DNA from: Methylotenera sp.
Lineage (GTDB): Bacteria; Pseudomonadota; Gammaproteobacteria; Burkholderiales; Methylophilaceae
Assembly (NCBI RefSeq): GCF_029945705.1
Contig: NZ_JAQSDC010000047.1
Coordinates: 41,921 to 105,920 of the forward strand
Direction of reading: 5' to 3'
Length of the DNA: 64,000 nucleotides
In this document: one piece after another, positions 25,732-31,129 of the stretch
Layout of the letters: every line of letters starts with the position of its first letter
Numbering within the stretch: position 1 is the stretch's first letter
Translations under genes and position numbers: made by a program
The notes under the pieces: generated by a model
Database searches by the model: none
What the model was told of the DNA's origin: nothing
What the model saw: only the letters and a program-made list of their open reading frames with translations

Positions 25732-25761
25732 AAAAAAACCCAGCTGAGTGCTGGGTTTTTT
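25732..25761. terminator. Bidirectional rho-independent terminator
   Basis: A7-CCCAGC-TGAGT-GCTGGG-T6 between convergent typA and cytochrome genes. Confidence 0.88.
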
Positions 25762-25826: not shown

Positions 25827-27464
25827 TTACTTTGGTACTGGTAAAGACTCATGCATCACATGTGAGTCATGAAAGTCATGGCAAGACATGCAGCTACTCG
25901 CAATGCGTTTAGGCTTTGGGCTATTGCCAGAATGACAGCGTAAGCATGATTGGCGGTCAGGCATTGCGACATCTGCACTGGAGTCAGACTCTTCTACGGC
26001 ATGGCAAGACTGGCATTTTTGAGTTTGATGCGAAGCGTGATTAAAATGCGCCTTGCTGAACCAATCTTGGTTGATATTCAACGGCGCTACGTGCCATGGC
26101 AAGCCATCATCAGAATTGGTCTTAACTTTAGAATCAATCTTTACTTCTGTTTTAGTTTTAGCTTTAAAGTCATTTATCTCATGGCAATATGCGCAACCAT
26201 CTGTTTTTAAAGACTCTGAGTAATGTGCAAGTTGTTTAGGTGCTTGAACCTTTAGGGCATTCATCACGTTTTGCTCTGAGCCATGCGGCACAGTGATGAG
26301 CGCCTCTGGAGGCCCCATTGTTAGCTGGTTGGCATGACACGTCATACAATCGCGATTATAAGAAACTGGTTTAAAGCGCATTTCCTTGCCTTCTTGCTGA
26401 TGGCAATTTGTACACGTCATTTCGCGTACATCCCAAATGCCATTTGGCCCCTGAACTTTACCAAAATGCTGAGAGTGTGGAAATTTGATGCCTGACTTCT
26501 CGACTAGTCGTGCTTTATCAGTTTGTGAGATACGCTCAATTTTCTTCTCTTTATCCCCTGTTAAAAACGTGAGTTTAAAGGCAGGGTGATCACGATCAAA
26601 ATCATGAATGTTCGTTAGCTTGGTATGGCTGTCAACCGCTTTAATATTGCCATGGCACCTCACACAAGTGCTGTTATCTTGTCGCGCCAGTGGATACGGC
26701 GACTTATGTTCGCGGTGACATTCAGCACAGCGTATGCCATCCATAAACAGCTTATTGTGATTAAATACTTGTTCTTGTAACTTTGGATTGGGAATATGTG
26801 GGGCAACATTACTATGACATTTTATGCAGGCTTTGTCGGTCACTTGTTGAGTTAATACCTCATGGCAATTAAAACATTGTGAGCCAAAATGCAGGTGTGA
26901 ATTAGAAATATGTCCAGGGCTCCATGCACGGTCAAAGCCTAAAGGGAGCTTCGCCATTGTTGCATGGAGATTAGGAATCAGATTTTGCGCTAATGGTAAT
27001 GCTAGAAAAATAAGTGCAATAAATGCTACTAGCGCTAGCGCTAGTCTTTTTTTAAAGGTTGATGCGCCTCGAAGTGGTTCGTGTGTTCGTGCTTTTAAGT
27101 CTTGGAAGTCATCGGGCAAAAGATGCACTAATGTTAATGACACTGCAATATTCACATCAGGCGGAGCAGGCTCGACCCTTAATTGAAAAGGGCCAATCAT
27201 CACTTGCGTACCGTGCGTGAGTGCAATATTTTGTAATATCGCACCATCTACTTCAAGCTCACCATTGACCGCCACCAAATGCAGCTGTTCATCATCTAAG
27301 CGTTTGATCACGGCATGATGCATAGAAATACGCGGATCGAGTAAATGAATGCTACATTCGGCACCTCGTCCAATGGATAACTCTTCTGCGGTGAGAGTGC
27401 GATAGCTACGCACGGGCATGCCGCGCTTATTATGTGAAATTTTGATTAAAAGACAATTAATCAT
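25827..27464 (-). CDS. FHA domain - TM - decaheme cytochrome c
   Basis: FHA motifs IGR, D..ISMHHA, NG; TM LALALVAFIALIFLALPLA; ten CxxCH (CFNCH, CIKCH, CAECH, CVRCH, CTNCH, CMTCH, CAYCH, CQSCH, CLRCH, CMSCH). Confidence 0.88.
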   Translation of the reverse strand: MINCLLIKISHNKRGMPVRSYRTLTAEELSIGRGAECSIHLLDPRISMHHAVIKRLDDEQLHLVAVNGELEVDGAILQNIALTHGTQVMIGPFQLRVEPAPPDVNIAVSLTLVHLLPDDFQDLKARTHEPLRGASTFKKRLALALVAFIALIFLALPLAQNLIPNLHATMAKLPLGFDRAWSPGHISNSHLHFGSQCFNCHEVLTQQVTDKACIKCHSNVAPHIPNPKLQEQVFNHNKLFMDGIRCAECHREHKSPYPLARQDNSTCVRCHGNIKAVDSHTKLTNIHDFDRDHPAFKLTFLTGDKEKKIERISQTDKARLVEKSGIKFPHSQHFGKVQGPNGIWDVREMTCTNCHQQEGKEMRFKPVSYNRDCMTCHANQLTMGPPEALITVPHGSEQNVMNALKVQAPKQLAHYSESLKTDGCAYCHEINDFKAKTKTEVKIDSKVKTNSDDGLPWHVAPLNINQDWFSKAHFNHASHQTQKCQSCHAVEESDSSADVAMPDRQSCLRCHSGNSPKPKRIASSCMSCHDFHDSHVMHESLPVPK

Positions 27465-27467
27465 GAC

Positions 27468-28298
27468 TTACCAATAAAGAAATACAGCAATGATATGCAC
27501 TACCATGGCAGCTAGTAGGGCAACTGCAAAGGGTGTGTGAAAGTAAAGCCAAAAGCCAAGTCTGGCTCGGTACATTAAATCTTGTCTAGCGCGTTTGACT
27601 AAAGACTGTCGCCGCACCATGATGGAATATAGCTCGCGATACAACTTACGTTGCTCGCCAGTTAAATGGTTACCAAGTATTGTCAGTTTTTCTACGGCAA
27701 CAGCGGTTGGACAATCTGGTTGATAGCCTCTTAGTTGCTCGAGTAAACCAGTGCCAATATAGGTTTCTCGGCATGCGCGATCTACCGTGAAGTTGATGTC
27801 GTCAGGCATGACTAAAGCAATCTGTCGAGCGAGCTTATCTGTTTCTGCAATCCGCAATAGCAGCCCATCTAAGCTATCTTCACCCATATTTTCGGTCATT
27901 AATCGCGGGTATATCATATATGCATAGTTGCCAAAAAAACCACTGATAACGACAATTATCAATAAAGCATAAGTGAGACTGTGAACATTGATACCAAAAT
28001 GAAAGCCACTGTGGAGCGTGGCGGTGACTGTGAGTGCTGTACCTAGATAAATATGGGCGGATAACCATCCTTGTGTTGAGCCGCTACTTCGATAGCGACG
28101 TTTGCGCACACCATACCATGTCATCCAAAACACTAAAGCGGCCGAAACTGTGCCCAAACCATAACCCAGCCAGCTTCCACCATAATAACCAACAGCGGGT
28201 TCAAATAGCATATAGGCTGTTACCGCAATAGCGATGACGATGATGGCTAGCTTGAAGTAGCGATAGTTTTTGTAGTCGAATATATTGCCGCGCTGCAT
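27468..28298 (-). CDS. Integral membrane protein, putative diheme cytochrome b
   Basis: About 5 TMs; two helices each with His pairs 14 residues apart (HIYLGTALTVTATLH, HTPFAVALLAAMVVH). Confidence 0.7.
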   Translation of the reverse strand: MQRGNIFDYKNYRYFKLAIIVIAIAVTAYMLFEPAVGYYGGSWLGYGLGTVSAALVFWMTWYGVRKRRYRSSGSTQGWLSAHIYLGTALTVTATLHSGFHFGINVHSLTYALLIIVVISGFFGNYAYMIYPRLMTENMGEDSLDGLLLRIAETDKLARQIALVMPDDINFTVDRACRETYIGTGLLEQLRGYQPDCPTAVAVEKLTILGNHLTGEQRKLYRELYSIMVRRQSLVKRARQDLMYRARLGFWLYFHTPFAVALLAAMVVHIIAVFLYW

Positions 28299-28307
28299 GA
28301 AGTTTCT

Positions 28308-30809
28308 CTAATTTCTGTCAGATTCAGTTAAAAAGACTTCATTTGTGACGCTGTCACTATTAGAGCCGCCAGCATAGTTGAGTAACTCTTCAGGGTTCAC
28401 ACGCAGAGCCGCGCCAACTGGGCAGGCACGGACACATACAGGGCCTTCTTTAATGTCTTTGCACATATCACACTTAACTGCAACTTTAGAGCCGCCGACG
28501 ATAGGAACAGCTTTGGGCTGAATGCCCAATAAGATTTGCCATATGCTACGTTCAGGCTGGTCTTGTATCACCGCCATTTGAATCACATCATAAGGGCAAT
28601 TTTGTTGGCAGTTGCCACAGCCAATACAGCTGTCATCGATGTAAACTTCGCCATGCGGTGCGCGGTGAATTGCATCAGGTGGGCAATCTTTCATGCAGTG
28701 CGGATGTTCACAGTGACGACATGAGGTTGGTACGCGAATGTTTGCAAAGATTGGCCCTGCATCTCTATCTAGCCTTGTTGCACCGCCGTGCGTATCAGCG
28801 CAAGCGTCTTCACAGTAGTTGCAGCGCACACAGAGTGACTCATCTATTAGCAATACATCAGTGGCTTCACCCACACCTTGTTGAATCAGAAATGAGATAA
28901 GATTTGATGGGGTTGATTGATTGCTTAATGAGCTTGGGTTGTCAGCAGGTTCGAGTTGCTGACGTTTTTCTTGCTCTTGCAAATGTTTAAGATAGCGCGC
29001 ATCTAGCTCACTACGAATTTCTGGATTGCGCGCAATAATGTCACTCATTCTACTTGCATCAATCAATACGGCTTCTGTAGCTACGGCTGCTCGCACGGTC
29101 GCATAACGCGGTTCTCCAGAAACCAGAGACCATTCGCCCACATAGTTGCCTGCCGCTACGTAATAAAGTACAACCTCTCGACCACCTATGATGCGCGAAA
29201 CAGTGACTGAGCCGCTTTGAATCAAATATAGCCCATCCGCTTGATCACCTTCATGGAATAACTCTTCACCTGCGGCAAAACTTTTCGGCGTTGCATGGCT
29301 CGCTAAATCATTTAGATCTTCTTCACTGAGTGTGAGACCAATACACACGTGTACAACCCACTTAATAGCCACTTCATTAAGTACGCGGCGCATGGATTGT
29401 ACTGAATCAACGAGTTTTTGCATGACTCGTCTTGGCGTTTCTATCAACACGCATTTAGTACTGGCGCGAACTGTACCTGCTCTGCGGCGGCCTGACACAA
29501 GTGCCATTTCACCAAAGAATTGACCCGCATTAAGTTTAGCGTCTGGTTTATCGTCTTCATCAATTAATACATCTAATTCACCTTCGACGATAAAGAAAAA
29601 GGTGGTGCTGTAATCATTACGTTTAAAAATAATATCGCCAGGTTCTGGCTGCAAGATGTTGCTTTGCAGCACTAACTCACGTAGCTGCAAGGTCGTAAGC
29701 ATTTTCAGCAATGGCACGCTTTTGCGTATTTTTTCCAACACATCATCTACGCCACGGTCATTGCAAAAGCTGGCGAACTTATCACGCAATAAAGCCGTAT
29801 CAGCAGGTTCTACTGGGTTGCCTAAGATGTACTCAATGACTTCATAACCTTGATTAATCCCTTGTTTGATTAGCGGATAACCAGCCAGTGCACCAATGAT
29901 GTAAAGACCTGGCACACTAGACTCATAATGTGAGGATAATGAAGGAAGGGCTGCATAGTCATCTGTTGGAAAACCTACGCCAAAGCCTTCAAGTAAAGGT
30001 CTTGAGGGCAGGGCACCTAGCCGCGCAATGACGCGGTGGCATGGAATGCGCTCTATGCCATTGGGCGTGTTGGCAATCACAGTGATAGGAAACTCACCTT
30101 TGGTATTCACTTCAATCGCTTGAGGTTTCGTTTCTAGCAACCAATCTAAAGCGCCTCTTTTTCGCGCCTCTGTTAGTTGGCTAAGGTTGCTTTCCTTACA
30201 ATTGCTAAAGTCATCTGCGCGGTTGAGAATGATAATCTGGTTGCGCCCAGTAAGCGCGAGCGCATTTTCCACGCCGCTATCACCACCACCAATGACTACG
30301 ATAGTTTCATCCTGATAAGCTTGTGGATCATCTAATTGATATTGCACTTGCGGGACATCGCCACCAGGAATCTCTAACTGCCGTAAGTTGCCTTGAACAC
30401 CAATGGCTAGCACTACATGATCTGCGGTGATTTTGCTGCCATCAACTAGCTCTAATTCCAACCATTTTTCGCGGCGGTGTATCCCAATCACTTTTGAACC
30501 GTAACGAATATTTAAGTTGTAATCAATAATCGTCTTTTCCCACGTATCGAGTACGGTTTCGCGCAACGAGGCGGTAAAAGGTAAGGGGCTGCGAATAGGC
30601 AGCGCACGCGGCTCTGACATGACGAGTTTGCCACGAAGATAACTGCGAATAGTGCTCGCTGGCTCCTGTTCGGCTTCGAGCAGTAAGTAAGATAATTTTT
30701 GCTCAGTTGCACGCACAGCCGCGGACAATCCGCTTGGGCCAGAGCCGATAATAATGGTATTGAAATGCTCTAACATTGCGACTTGCTTGCTAATTACGTT
30801 TTTTGACAT
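28308..30809 (-). CDS. FAD/NAD(P) oxidoreductase - 2x cyclic-nucleotide-binding - 4x[4Fe-4S] ferredoxin fusion
   Basis: IIGSGPSG and VIGGGDSG Rossmann motifs; cNMP cassettes FFGEMAL..RRAGTV and YVGEWSL..PRYATV; CVRCNYCEDAC, CRHCEHPHC..CP, CIGCGNCQQNCP, KCDMC..PVC..ACP (DmsB/NrfC-like pattern). Confidence 0.88.
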   Translation of the reverse strand: MSKNVISKQVAMLEHFNTIIIGSGPSGLSAAVRATEQKLSYLLLEAEQEPASTIRSYLRGKLVMSEPRALPIRSPLPFTASLRETVLDTWEKTIIDYNLNIRYGSKVIGIHRREKWLELELVDGSKITADHVVLAIGVQGNLRQLEIPGGDVPQVQYQLDDPQAYQDETIVVIGGGDSGVENALALTGRNQIIILNRADDFSNCKESNLSQLTEARKRGALDWLLETKPQAIEVNTKGEFPITVIANTPNGIERIPCHRVIARLGALPSRPLLEGFGVGFPTDDYAALPSLSSHYESSVPGLYIIGALAGYPLIKQGINQGYEVIEYILGNPVEPADTALLRDKFASFCNDRGVDDVLEKIRKSVPLLKMLTTLQLRELVLQSNILQPEPGDIIFKRNDYSTTFFFIVEGELDVLIDEDDKPDAKLNAGQFFGEMALVSGRRRAGTVRASTKCVLIETPRRVMQKLVDSVQSMRRVLNEVAIKWVVHVCIGLTLSEEDLNDLASHATPKSFAAGEELFHEGDQADGLYLIQSGSVTVSRIIGGREVVLYYVAAGNYVGEWSLVSGEPRYATVRAAVATEAVLIDASRMSDIIARNPEIRSELDARYLKHLQEQEKRQQLEPADNPSSLSNQSTPSNLISFLIQQGVGEATDVLLIDESLCVRCNYCEDACADTHGGATRLDRDAGPIFANIRVPTSCRHCEHPHCMKDCPPDAIHRAPHGEVYIDDSCIGCGNCQQNCPYDVIQMAVIQDQPERSIWQILLGIQPKAVPIVGGSKVAVKCDMCKDIKEGPVCVRACPVGAALRVNPEELLNYAGGSNSDSVTNEVFLTESDRN

Positions 30810-31129
30810 GACGCGGCGACCAAAATTAAAGTCTTAGAATATGTCTGACTGATATACGCTATTGTACGGAAAGTTAGCTTGATTATGACAAATCCATTCT
30901 GAAATTTTCACATAATTTATTTAAATCAGCTACCGAACGATAATGCAATATCTATCAAGCTAGAAGTTGCCAAAAGTTACTGGTTGACTTAAGAAACGGT
31001 AGTATTTTACGGTTTGAATGTTACGTTTTAGTAAAATTTTTACTAAAATATGATGCATAGATAGTGTCATATATGCCGTTATAAGTCAAAATTTGAAGAT
31101 TTCTTTCATGGCATGCTTGCTTACTATTC

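What the first reader, a model, noticed from the sequence alone, without database searches (positions are those of the whole stretch)
28308..30809. Tandem cNMP-binding domains inserted between flavin and FeS modules of one polypeptide
Seen: the flavin domain is TrxR/YpdA-like but has no redox CxxC, suggesting a ferredoxin:NAD(P)+ reductase role. Both phosphate-binding cassettes keep G-E and R, and the residue after R is Ala or Tyr rather than the Thr/Ser linked to cGMP preference. Inference: a PKA-R-like tandem acts as a cAMP-driven hinge controlling the flavin-FeS distance.
Basis: partly seen in the sequence, partly recalled or inferred. Interest (0 to 1): 0.7.

Follow-up and report, generated by a model that had tools for sequence, protein, structure and literature searches.

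The report
Cyclic-nucleotide-sensing flavin/iron-sulfur head of haem wire
This gene encodes a real but never-tested protein that joins an NAD(P)H-flavin enzyme, two cyclic-nucleotide sensor domains and a four-cluster iron-sulfur wire; with the two genes after it, it looks built to carry electrons across the inner membrane under second-messenger control, and it belongs to a widespread family already noticed in the literature.

Summary
ORF 28308-30809 (minus strand, 833 aa) has four parts:
- a TrxR/YpdA-fold flavin domain with no CxxC and no YpdA cysteine;
- two cNMP-binding domains with intact G-E...R cassettes (Arg followed by Ala, then Tyr);
- a flexible linker;
- a HycB-type module with 16 invariant Cys, enough for four [4Fe-4S] clusters.

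It heads a tightly spaced three-gene set. The second gene encodes a 5-TM protein with two invariant W-x3-H-x13-H motifs, probably holding two b haems. The third encodes an FHA-anchored decahaem cytochrome c. This A-B-C order recurs across Pseudomonadota and Acidobacteriota, and A and B are sometimes fused.

New evidence ties the family to cyclic nucleotides. The cassette residues are invariant in the main clade. Class III cyclase genes, mostly adenylate-type, lie within 26 kb of A in 9 of 16 genomes against about 1 expected.

- The Ala/Tyr argument for cAMP does not hold, because relatives mostly have Ser/Thr there.
- The "hinge setting the flavin-FeS distance" could not be tested.
- Two congeners keep intact cassettes with no detectable class III or CYTH (class IV) cyclase.

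The family matches the PCC4 "Fe-S protein + IMP" genes, ptdEFG and the Ferrigenium NHC cluster. This is a new member of a known, uncharacterised kind.

The parts
28308..30809 (-). Gene A: 833-aa flavin / CNB-A / CNB-B / 4x[4Fe-4S] protein. It has no signal peptide and no TM segment, so it is cytoplasmic. The start could be M1 (30809) or M12 (30776).
   Evidence: relatives align from about residue 11-14
29820..30767 (-). Flavin domain (residues 15-330). It has the FAD GxGxxG motif (G22-G27) and the NAD(P)H Rossmann motif GGGDSGVE (G174-E181). It has no CxxC (YQLDDP), and Ser26 sits where YpdA has its Cys.
   Evidence: (7a7b TM 0.86)
29715..29819 (-). Connector from flavin to CNB-A (residues 331-365). 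It contains the conserved P335-A336-D337 and is modelled with high confidence.
   Evidence: pLDDT 90-98 over residues 321-400
29355..29714 (-). cNMP-binding domain A (residues 366-485)
29463..29516 (-). Phosphate-binding cassette A, FGEMALVSGRRRAGTVRA (G433, E434, R443, A444, T446)
   Evidence: G/E/R/T are invariant in 119/119 near orthologues; G/E/R are invariant in 89/89 main-clade members, with T446 in 85/89.
28965..29354 (-). cNMP-binding domain B (residues 486-615)
29088..29141 (-). Phosphate-binding cassette B, VGEWSLVSGEPRYATVRA (G558, E559, R568, Y569, T571)
   Evidence: conservation
28860..28964 (-). Linker from CNB-B to FeS (residues 616-650). It is low-complexity and predicted to be flexible.
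   Evidence: pLDDT 49-70; lowest conservation among the named segments apart from the C-terminal tail in the near-orthologue set
28374..28859 (-). HycB/HydN-type ferredoxin module (residues 651-812). Its four Cys motifs start at C660, C697, C728 and C780, giving 16 invariant Cys.
27468..28298 (-). Gene B: 276-aa membrane protein with 5 TM helices. It carries W78-x3-H82-x13-H96 on TM3, S119-G-x-x-G123 on TM4 and W250-x3-H254-x13-H268 on TM5, plus a cytoplasmic helical domain (139-245). It is probably a dihaem b. It starts 9 nt after the stop of A.
25827..27464 (-). Gene C: 545-aa protein with an N-terminal FHA domain, one TM helix (136-166) and a periplasmic domain with ten CxxCH motifs and ten conserved distal His. 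It starts 3 nt after the stop of B.
30882..30911 (-). Sigma-70-like promoter candidate (GTGAAA, 18 nt spacer, TG-CATAAT) in the 320-bp AT-rich region upstream of A
   Evidence: This is a consensus match only; the number of such sites in the region is no higher than in shuffles.
25733..25761 (.). 12-bp hairpin flanked by an A-run and a T-run, lying between the convergent genes C and typA. It is a likely bidirectional terminator ending the A-B-C unit.

Best explanation
Gene A encodes the cytoplasmic entry subunit of a three-protein electron conduit (A-B-C) that bypasses the quinone pool.

Proposed path: NAD(P)H reduces the FAD of the TrxR-fold domain, which works like a TrxR-type ferredoxin-NAD(P)+ reductase because it has no disulfide. 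Electrons then pass along four [4Fe-4S] clusters in the C-terminal HycB-like module. They cross the membrane through two b haems held by the four invariant His of protein B. They end in the ten c haems of the periplasmic domain of protein C. I favour outward flow (NAD(P)H to periplasm), because it runs downhill in redox potential and with the membrane potential.

The two CNB domains are most likely real 3',5'-cNMP sensors, most probably for cAMP. They would gate this flow allosterically. The first CNB packs rigidly against the segment that follows the FAD domain. In TrxR-type FNRs (from prior knowledge) that segment caps the flavin. The second CNB carries the FeS module on a floppy tether of about 35 residues. 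Ligand binding would therefore change either flavin accessibility or where the tethered FeS module docks.

Shown here: the domain content, the cofactor-ligand residues, their conservation, the gene linkage, and the enrichment of cyclase genes nearby.

Inferred: every cofactor, the direction of flow, ligand identity, and the gating mechanism.
For: Architecture and motifs.

Structure: the AlphaFold model has pLDDT 83.5 and pTM 0.74. The flavin/CNB-A junction is confident and the CNB-B/FeS linker has low confidence. Foldseek best hits are YpdA/Bdr, TrxR in the flavin-reducing conformation, and TrxR-type FNRs. For the CNB part the hits are PKA-R.

Operon and synteny:
- The stop-start gaps are 9 nt and 3 nt.
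- A-B-C order holds in about 27 of 31 loci from Gamma- and Alphaproteobacteria and Acidobacteriota, and in three more congeners.
- A and B are fused into one ORF of 1118-1135 aa in one family. This fits a cytoplasmic FeS module joined to the cytoplasmic N-terminus of B.

Protein B: H82, H96, H254 and H268 are invariant in 23/23 relatives. The SGxxG and 2x W-x3-H-x13-H motifs are the signature that He et al. 2017 described for PCC3/PCC4 inner-membrane proteins.

Protein C: ten CxxCH motifs plus ten conserved His.

CNB function:
- The CNB domains are as conserved as the flavin domain.
- In 119/119 near orthologues G, E, R and T are all invariant. In 89/89 main-clade members G and R are invariant in both cassettes; E434 is 89/89, E559 88/89, T446 85/89 and T571 81/89.
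- The genome has a 416-aa membrane class III cyclase with the K...D adenylate signature.
- Class III cyclase genes, mostly CHASE2-linked with Lys at the specificity position, lie within 26 kb of A in 9 of 16 genomes against 1.03 expected. By family the count is 5 of 7 against 0.97 expected.
Against: - Nothing has been tested biochemically in any member of the family.
- B has no significant structural match in the PDB. Its Pfam cytochrome-b561 hit is below the cut-off (28.3 against 30.1 bits).
- Within the genus, the cyclase orthologue does not co-occur with A (9/7/8/1 table).
- Two near-complete congeners (G006, G017) keep an intact A-B-C set and intact cassettes but have no PF00211 or CYTH match.
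- The most divergent family members have lost the cassette Arg or Glu, so the tandem also has a role that does not need ligand.
- In this genome the cyclase is on another contig, and C is the only cytochrome with more than two haems. The periplasmic acceptor is therefore unknown.
- The 26-kb threshold for the cyclase statistic was chosen after seeing the data.
Confidence: 0.55

Rival explanations
1. The module is the same, but the CNB tandem binds no ligand. It would be a scaffold or dimerisation unit that holds the flavin and FeS modules together, like the cyclic-nucleotide-binding-homology domains of KCNH channels. The electron flow would then not be controlled by a second messenger.
For: The cassettes are degenerate in the most divergent representatives (P0159, P0161, P0167, P0171, P0180). 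Congeners G006 and G017 have no detectable class III or CYTH cyclase. The cyclase orthologue does not co-occur with A within the genus.
Against: The ribose-phosphate ligands G-E...R-x-x-T are invariant in both cassettes in the near orthologues. In the main clade G and R are invariant in both cassettes (89/89), and E and T are kept in 81-89 of 89. The cassettes are also intact in the genomes without a detectable cyclase. Cyclase genes are strongly enriched next to A in at least five families.
Confidence: 0.15
2. The tandem senses a nucleotide other than cAMP, such as cGMP, a 2',3'-cyclic nucleotide or another small molecule.
For: The residue after the cassette Arg is Ser/Thr in most relatives. 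The neighbouring FIST-cyclase in L027 has Glu at the Lys specificity position. The cyclase-less congeners would need a ligand from another source. From prior knowledge, the CRP/FNR superfamily binds many kinds of effector.
Against: This genome's cyclase and most cyclases next to A have the Lys, and Asp or Thr where that position could be read, typical of adenylate cyclases. In the PDB search with the isolated tandem, many of the sequence relatives are cAMP receptors (PKA-R, CRP), although the top hits are cGMP-dependent kinases.
Confidence: 0.2
3. Electrons flow inward. The decahaem collects periplasmic electrons, for example from methanol-oxidation cytochromes or Fe(II). A then reduces NAD(P)+ or a cytoplasmic acceptor, as the PCC4 and Ferrigenium papers proposed for uptake towards the membrane.
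For: He et al. 2017 and the Ferrigenium preprint place homologous clusters in Fe(II) oxidisers and draw inward flow. FNR-type enzymes are reversible (prior knowledge).
Against: Inward electron transfer through two b haems works against the membrane potential, and c-haem donors sit far above the NAD(P)+ couple. No energy-coupling subunit is encoded. This host is a methylotroph with no other multihaem or porin-cytochrome genes. From prior knowledge, its NAD(P)H comes from the RuMP cycle.
Confidence: 0.12
4. One reading: cAMP closes or opens a hinge formed by the tandem, which changes the FAD-to-first-cluster distance within one polypeptide.
For: The tandem does lie between the two redox modules. 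From prior knowledge, PKA-R tandems undergo large ligand-driven rearrangements of the B/C helix.
Against: Confidence is low only in the CNB-B/FeS linker and not within the tandem. Split forms lack the flavin domain. In L053 the flavin sits on a different polypeptide while CNB-CNB-FeS stays together. The constant pairing is therefore CNB with FeS, not flavin-CNB-FeS. No distances could be measured.
Confidence: 0.2

Closest known systems
PCC4 (subgroup II) and porin-less 'MHC + IMP + redox protein' clusters of He et al. 2017, Front Microbiol 8:1584 (PMC5566968)
   Same: The inner-membrane protein has 5 TM helices, SGxxG on TM4 and W-x3-H-x13-H on TM3 and TM5. B has exactly these motifs, and they are invariant. 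An Fe-S (pfam13247) gene lies directly upstream of the IMP, and a decahaem cytochrome is in the cluster. The authors also noted one genome where the Fe-S and IMP genes were annotated as one gene, which matches the A-B fusions seen here.
   Different: PCC4 also has a porin, a tetrahaem and a pentahaem cytochrome. None of these is in the window, and this genome has no other multihaem cytochrome. The paper proposed electron uptake to the quinone pool. In the text I read, it did not discuss the cNMP domains. Nothing was tested experimentally.
ptdABCDEFG cluster (bioRxiv 10.1101/2023.11.21.568154): PtdE, PtdF, PtdG
   Same: As described there, PtdE is a cNMP-binding protein with 4Fe-4S clusters, PtdF is a ferric-reductase-like membrane protein and PtdG is a decahaem, in the same order as A-B-C.
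   Different: The paper describes PtdE with two clusters, and a separate FAD/NAD(P) protein (PtdC) that is flavohaemoprotein-like. Here the flavin domain is TrxR-fold and fused, and there are four Cys motifs. PtdA, PtdB and PtdD have no counterparts in the window. I could not compare sequences directly, because the held supplements contained nothing usable. Function is stated to be unknown.
Ferrigenium straubiae 'NHC' cluster (bioRxiv 10.64898/2026.01.22.701106)
   Same: It has an FHA-anchored multihaem cytochrome, a 5-TM protein and a cytosolic [4Fe-4S] protein encoded together, in a betaproteobacterium.
   Different: It is a nonahaem rather than a decahaem. The authors found no redox motif in the TM protein and did not mention flavin or cNMP domains. 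Function is unknown.
TrxR-type ferredoxin-NADP+ reductases (e.g. 2zbw, 3lzw, 3ab1) and YpdA/Bdr (7a7b)
   Same: Two-Rossmann TrxR fold with no redox disulfide. Foldseek TM scores are 0.55-0.86.
   Different: Those are stand-alone proteins of about 330 aa that act on soluble ferredoxin or bacillithiol disulfide. Here the acceptor module is fused, and the YpdA Cys is Ser.
PKA regulatory subunit / PKG tandem CNB domains; cAMP-regulated enzymes such as mycobacterial acetyltransferase Pat
   Same: Two collinear CNB domains with canonical cassettes. A CNB domain fused to an enzyme as an allosteric switch is an established principle (prior knowledge). NCBIfam picks up the Pat CNB domain.
   Different: There is no docking/dimerisation domain or inhibitor segment, and no kinase partner. 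The regulated output would be an electron-transfer chain, for which I found no characterised precedent.
NADPH oxidase / ferric reductase (NOX/FRE) family
   Same: The logic is the same: cytoplasmic NAD(P)H-flavin, two transmembrane b haems on His pairs in TM3 and TM5, electrons delivered outside, with a built-in regulatory domain in some members. This is a working analogy, also drawn by He et al..
   Different: The flavin fold is unrelated. This system has an extra four-cluster FeS wire and a ten-haem c-type output. B gives no Pfam FRD hit and no structural hit.

Membership tests
Thioredoxin-disulfide reductase (TIGR01292) | Redox-active CxxC in the NADPH domain | tested here: not met
   The position aligned to CAVC of L. 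lactis TrxR reads QLDD. None of 32 diverse relatives has it. There is no CxxC before residue 660.
Thioredoxin-disulfide reductase (TIGR01292) | Score above the curated equivalog cut-off | tested here: not met
   57.3 bits against a cut-off of 343
YpdA/Bdr bacillithiol disulfide reductase (TIGR04018) | Conserved Cys within GGGPCG (Cys14 of S. aureus YpdA, recalled from prior knowledge; the position is visible in the 7a7b alignment) | tested here: not met
   GGGPCGLSAA in 7a7b against GSGPSGLSAA here. The family has A, G or S at this position. The score is 106.6 bits against a cut-off of 339.9.
TrxR-type ferredoxin-NAD(P)+ reductase | TrxR two-Rossmann fold with FAD and NAD(P)H motifs and no disulfide | tested here: met
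   G22-G27 and G174/G176/D177/E181 are invariant. Foldseek hits include 2zbw, 3ab1, 3lzw and 6gar.
TrxR-type ferredoxin-NAD(P)+ reductase | C-terminal extension stacking on the flavin; NAD(P)H:ferredoxin activity | not testable with these tools
There are no biochemical data.
Cyclic-nucleotide-binding domain (PF00027), PKA-R-like tandem | Two domains above the gathering score that align collinearly with the PKA-RI A/B tandem | tested here: met
   127.3 bits against 27.5, in two stretches. Residues 391-593 align with PKA RI-alpha 66-265 in one stretch.
Cyclic-nucleotide-binding domain (PF00027), PKA-R-like tandem | Phosphate-binding cassette G-E-x-A/S-L...R-x-A/G-T in both domains | tested here: met
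   Invariant in the near orthologues; in the main clade G and R are invariant and E and T nearly so.
Cyclic-nucleotide-binding domain (PF00027), PKA-R-like tandem | Actual binding of cAMP/cGMP and its selectivity | not testable with these tools
   Only indirect evidence: adenylate-type cyclases in the genome and next to relatives.
PKA regulatory subunit proper | N-terminal docking/dimerisation domain and inhibitor site | tested here: not met
   The region N-terminal to the tandem is the flavin domain.
HycB/HydN-type four-cluster ferredoxin | Four Cys motifs (16 Cys) collinear with HycB | tested here: met
   All 16 Cys align with HycB3/HycB4 of 7qv7 and are invariant in 32 and 89 relatives. It is not an equivalog of HydN (47.7 bits against a cut-off of 260).
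PCC3/PCC4-type inner-membrane protein (He et al. 2017), for neighbour B | Five TM helices, SGxxG on TM4, and W-x3-H-x13-H on TM3 and TM5 | tested here: met
   compared with the description read
ptd / PCC4 full cluster | Porin plus tetra- and pentahaem cytochromes encoded alongside | tested here: not met
   There are none in the window. C is the only ORF in the 100%-complete genome with more than two CxxCH motifs.

The most novel reading that the evidence does not exclude
A-B-C is a second-messenger-gated, quinone-independent valve that sends cytoplasmic NAD(P)H electrons straight to the periplasm. From there they could reach the c4/c5 cytochromes and the cbb3 oxidase of this methylotroph. It would be a bacterial functional counterpart of regulated NADPH oxidases, built from unrelated parts. 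cAMP, made by membrane sensor cyclases often encoded nearby, would act directly on an intramolecular electron wire and not through transcription. I know of no characterised example of that mode of control.
Probability: 0.3. Interest if true: 0.85.

Novelty: new member of a known kind. Interest (0 to 1): 0.5.

Why it matters
If a cyclic nucleotide directly switches a flavin-FeS-haem wire, that would be a new way for bacteria to control redox balance and respiration on a fast time-scale. The family is large: more than 5000 clusters at 90% identity, across several phyla. It occurs in methylotrophs, iron oxidisers, marine oxygen-minimum-zone bacteria and soil Acidobacteriota, where its clusters have been proposed to carry out extracellular electron transfer. 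A minimal three-gene version in a small methylotroph genome with no other multihaem cytochrome is a clean system for testing what the core module does. A ligand-switchable electron conduit would also interest bioelectrochemistry.

Tried and rejected
- Measuring the FAD-to-cluster distance: structure prediction returns no coordinates to the Python box, so the hinge idea could not be tested geometrically.
- Structural assignment of B: Foldseek against the PDB gave only generic helical bundles with E > 0.1. The dihaem reading rests on the His motifs alone.
- Direct sequence comparison with Ptd proteins: the held supplements of the preprint contain no such data.
- Genus-level co-occurrence of A with the orthologue of this genome's cyclase: no positive association, and if anything the opposite (A+Cyc+ 9, A+Cyc- 7, A-Cyc+ 8, A-Cyc- 1). 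I therefore dropped it as support and report it as a caveat.
- A CRP-type operator upstream of A: TGTGA-N5-TCAGA near 30905 has the wrong spacing and a poor right half. Rejected.
- HdrA-like flavin-based bifurcation: considered from prior knowledge of HdrA. The NAD(P)H Rossmann motif is conserved and no HdrA family appeared among the 25 best NCBIfam matches shown. I did not pursue it.
- A periplasmic (Tat-exported) location, as for NrfC/DmsB: rejected, because there is no twin-arginine or signal sequence and no TM segment, and the NAD(P)H and cNMP domains are cytoplasmic.
- Literature searches for any characterised member returned only descriptive mentions.
Full report
**1. The observation**

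The window has an 833-aa ORF at 28308-30809 on the minus strand.

Pfam places Pyr_redox_2/3 on residues 17-321, two cNMP_binding domains (127 bits against a cut-off of 27.5), and 4Fe-4S dicluster families on residues 650-810. NCBIfam's best hits are YpdA, CRP and HydN/AegA-type ferredoxins. All are far below their equivalog cut-offs, so the protein is not a member of any curated functional family.

The only CxxC motifs are the four FeS motifs starting at C660, C697, C728 and C780. Translating the two cassette stretches gives FGEMALVSGRRRAGTVRA and VGEWSLVSGEPRYATVRA.

**2. The four parts**

*Flavin domain.*
- The alignment to L. lactis TrxR puts Q-L-D-D where TrxR has C-A-V-C.
- The alignment to S. 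aureus YpdA puts Ser26 where YpdA has the Cys of GGGPCG.
- Both absences hold in all 32 diverse relatives.
- The FAD and NAD(P)H Rossmann glycines, D177 and E181 are invariant.
- An AlphaFold model built on 89 sequences has pLDDT 83.5 and pTM 0.74.
- Foldseek's best PDB matches for the model are YpdA/Bdr (TM 0.86), TrxR in the flavin-reducing conformation (0.83) and the TrxR-type ferredoxin-NADP+ reductases.
- The domain therefore works like an FNR. It fails the defining tests for TrxR and for Bdr.

*CNB tandem.* One collinear alignment covers both domains of PKA RI-alpha, and PKG and CRP also match.

*FeS module.* All 16 Cys align with HycB3/HycB4 of the HDCR filament and with E. coli HycB. 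From prior knowledge these are four-cluster ferredoxins. The Cys are invariant.

*Linkers.* Model confidence is 90-98 across the flavin/CNB-A junction (residues 321-400). It drops to 49-70 in the CNB-B/FeS linker at 611-650. That linker is also the least conserved segment apart from the C-terminal tail in the near-orthologue set.

**3. Context**

Gene B starts 9 nt after the stop of A, and gene C starts 3 nt after the stop of B. A strong hairpin with A- and T-runs closes the unit against the convergent typA gene.

*Protein B* (276 aa) has five predicted TM helices and a cytoplasmic helical domain.
- H82 and H96 on TM3, and H254 and H268 on TM5, are each 14 residues apart and are invariant in 23/23 relatives.
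- W78 and W250 are also conserved (23/23 and 22/23), and in S119-G-x-x-G123 the two Gly are invariant (23/23) and S119 is 20/23.
- He et al. 2017 described this same signature for the inner-membrane proteins of their PCC3 and PCC4 clusters. They interpreted it as a dihaem b, by analogy with ferric-reductase domains and cytochrome b.
- By the positive-inside rule, H82/H254 lie near the cytoplasmic face and H96/H268 near the periplasmic face. This is my inference.
- B has no significant structural neighbour in the PDB. Its Pfam b561 hit is just below the cut-off.

*Protein C* has an FHA domain, one TM helix, ten CxxCH motifs and ten further conserved His.

**4. Distribution and linkage**

- Hits at 79-95% identity are named only "cyclic nucleotide-binding domain-containing protein", and those that carry an organism name are mostly from Methylotenera MAGs. 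The host is therefore a Methylotenera-like member of the Methylophilaceae.
- About 16 of 25 genomes of the genus carry the gene.
- So do 13 of 401 sampled genomes of the phylum.
- The library of representatives holds 770 proteins at E <= 1e-30. Dozens are full-length at 34-56% identity. There are also split forms of about 450-510 aa that cover only the CNB tandem and FeS module.
- A profile search found more than 5000 clusters at 90% identity.
- Named hosts include Lysobacter, Chromatiales, Steroidobacteraceae, Fontimonas, Usitatibacter, Rhizomicrobium, Rubrimonas, Sulfotelmatobacter and Thermoanaerobaculia.
- In my ORF and phmmer survey of the fetched loci, A-B-C order holds in about 27 of 31, and in three further congeners.
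- A and B are fused in one family.
- A Kofleriaceae locus reshuffles the same domains: [CNB-CNB-FeS-B] in one ORF, followed by [4xFHA-multihaem-Fer4-flavin] in the next.
- The set of modules is thus conserved as a functional unit. The constant covalent pairing is CNB with FeS.

**5. Are the CNB domains sensors, and of what?**

*Evidence for sensing.*
- The CNB domains are as conserved as the flavin domain. Identity among near orthologues is 84% for the CNB domains and 80% for the flavin domain.
- G, E, R and T of both cassettes are invariant in 119/119 near orthologues. In the 89 main-clade members G and R are invariant, E is kept in 88-89 and T in 81-85.
- The genome encodes a 416-aa membrane class III cyclase (213 bits). 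It carries KTIGDAYM and YDLWGDTVN, the Lys/Asp pair typical of adenylate cyclases (the rule is prior knowledge).
- No class I cyclase was found in this genome.

*A new link to cyclases.* Class III cyclase genes lie close to A in many lineages:

| Genome or locus | Distance from A | Notes |
|---|---|---|
| G020, paralogous A-B-C cluster | 1 kb | orthologue of this genome's cyclase |
| G026 | 2 kb | CHASE2-cyclase |
| G041 | 4 kb | FIST-cyclase |
| Chromatiales MAG (L041) | 4 kb | CHASE2-cyclase |
| G410 | 10 kb | CHASE2-cyclase, next to a calcineurin-like phosphoesterase |
| Five genomes of family f64 | 15-26 kb | in three of them it is the only PF00211 gene in the genome |

The count is 9 of 16 genomes within 26 kb against 1.03 expected (Poisson-binomial P about 5e-8). 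By family it is 5 of 7 against 0.97 expected (P about 4e-4). The threshold was chosen after seeing the data, so the P values are optimistic, but the effect is large. The neighbouring cyclases mostly carry the Lys.

*Evidence against.*
The residue after the Arg is A/P/S/T (cassette A) and Y (cassette B) only in the Methylophilaceae orthologues. In the family at large it is Ser/Thr in 67/89 and 72/89.
- Within the genus, the cyclase orthologue does not track A.
- G006 (one contig, 98% complete) and G017 (96% complete) have an intact A-B-C set and intact cassettes but no PF00211 or CYTH hit.
- The most divergent representatives have lost the cassette Arg or Glu.

My reading is that the tandem is a genuine cNMP sensor in the main clade, probably for cAMP. 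It also has a structural role that persists where ligand binding has been lost. The cyclase-less congeners remain unexplained.

**6. Mechanism**

The cofactor-binding residues give a continuous path: NAD(P)H, FAD, four [4Fe-4S] clusters, two b haems, ten c haems.

I favour export of electrons. It runs downhill in potential and with the membrane potential, and no energy-coupling subunit is present.

C is the only cytochrome with more than two haems in this complete genome. There is therefore no porin-cytochrome partner. From reading their sequences, the other c-type cytochromes look like c4- and c5-like dihaems, CcoP and DUF1924-type proteins. These are candidate periplasmic acceptors.

For gating I propose the following. 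CNB-A is rigidly packed on the segment that follows the FAD domain, and that segment contains the conserved P-A-D motif. CNB-A would transmit ligand binding to the flavin face. The FeS module hangs from CNB-B on a flexible tether, and its docking would change. This proposal is inference. The literal "hinge distance" model could not be tested, because no coordinates were available.

**7. Comparison with what is known**

Three sources describe the same kind of cluster without experiments:
- PCC4 subgroup II and the porin-less MHC/IMP/redox-protein clusters (He et al. 2017);
- ptdEFG;
- the Ferrigenium NHC cluster.

Earlier notes of this scan record the same family in many other genomes. One of them led me to the PCC4 paper, which I then read and checked against B.

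The window's copy is therefore a new member of a known but uncharacterised kind. It is notable as a minimal three-gene version in a small methylotroph genome.

**8. Limits**

- There are no model coordinates.
- No Ptd sequences were available for comparison.
- Cyclase classes II, V and VI were not searched, and class I was searched only in this genome.
- The start codon of A (M1 or M12) is not settled.

Noticed in passing
window 25827-27464 (gene C), residues 30-70: The FHA domain of C keeps G32-R33, S47-x-x-H50 and N66-G67 in this genome. Across the family the Ser of S-x-x-H is often Ala, Gly, Glu or Asp, and the Asn varies. Phosphothreonine binding may therefore not be general in the family.
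   Followed up: partly
G000 whole genome (C47:67747-69384 = gene C): Gene C is the only ORF in the 2.93-Mb, 100%-complete genome with more than two CxxCH motifs. The other c-type candidates each have two such motifs and read as c4-like, tandem c5-like, CcoP and one further dihaem; separate single-haem DUF1924 homologues also exist. The decahaem has no porin or outer-membrane partner.
   Followed up: partly
L025, L038, L039 (genomes G058, G221, G082): A and B are fused into single ORFs of 1118-1135 aa (flavin-CNB-CNB-FeS-5TM). This is a Rosetta-stone link between the FeS module and the membrane protein.
   Followed up: yes
L053:6869-12909 (Kofleriaceae MAG): The same domain set is reshuffled. 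One ORF is CNB-CNB-FeS-TM. The next is 4xFHA + multihaem + Fer4 + C-terminal Pyr_redox_3 flavin domain.
   Followed up: partly
L036:7735-9923 (G020:C56): A second, 53%-identical A-B-C cluster in a congener is preceded on the same strand by a DUF1924 monohaem cytochrome gene, which abuts A. One gene further up is the orthologue (80% identity) of this genome's class III cyclase.
   Followed up: partly
L124:7944-10670 (G410:C42): A calcineurin-like phosphoesterase (a possible cNMP phosphodiesterase) sits directly upstream of a CHASE2-cyclase, about 10 kb from the A-B-C cluster.
   Followed up: no
L123:3940-7251 (G072:C1): A 1103-aa protein with three HbpS-like (haem-degrading protein-like) stretches lies between the CHASE2-cyclase and a very large multihaem cytochrome gene. 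That cytochrome gene is convergent with C-B-A.
   Followed up: no
window 25733-25761: A 12-bp GC-rich hairpin flanked by A6 and T6 lies between typA (+) and gene C (-). It looks like a shared bidirectional terminator.
   Followed up: no
G006 and G017 (L120, L121): Two near-complete congeners keep A-B-C with intact cNMP cassettes but have no PF00211 or CYTH match anywhere in the genome. The source of the presumed ligand there is unexplained.
   Followed up: partly
window 30774-30809: Two in-frame ATG codons (M1 and M12) could start gene A, and neither has a clear Shine-Dalgarno sequence. Relatives align only from about residue 11-14.
   Followed up: no
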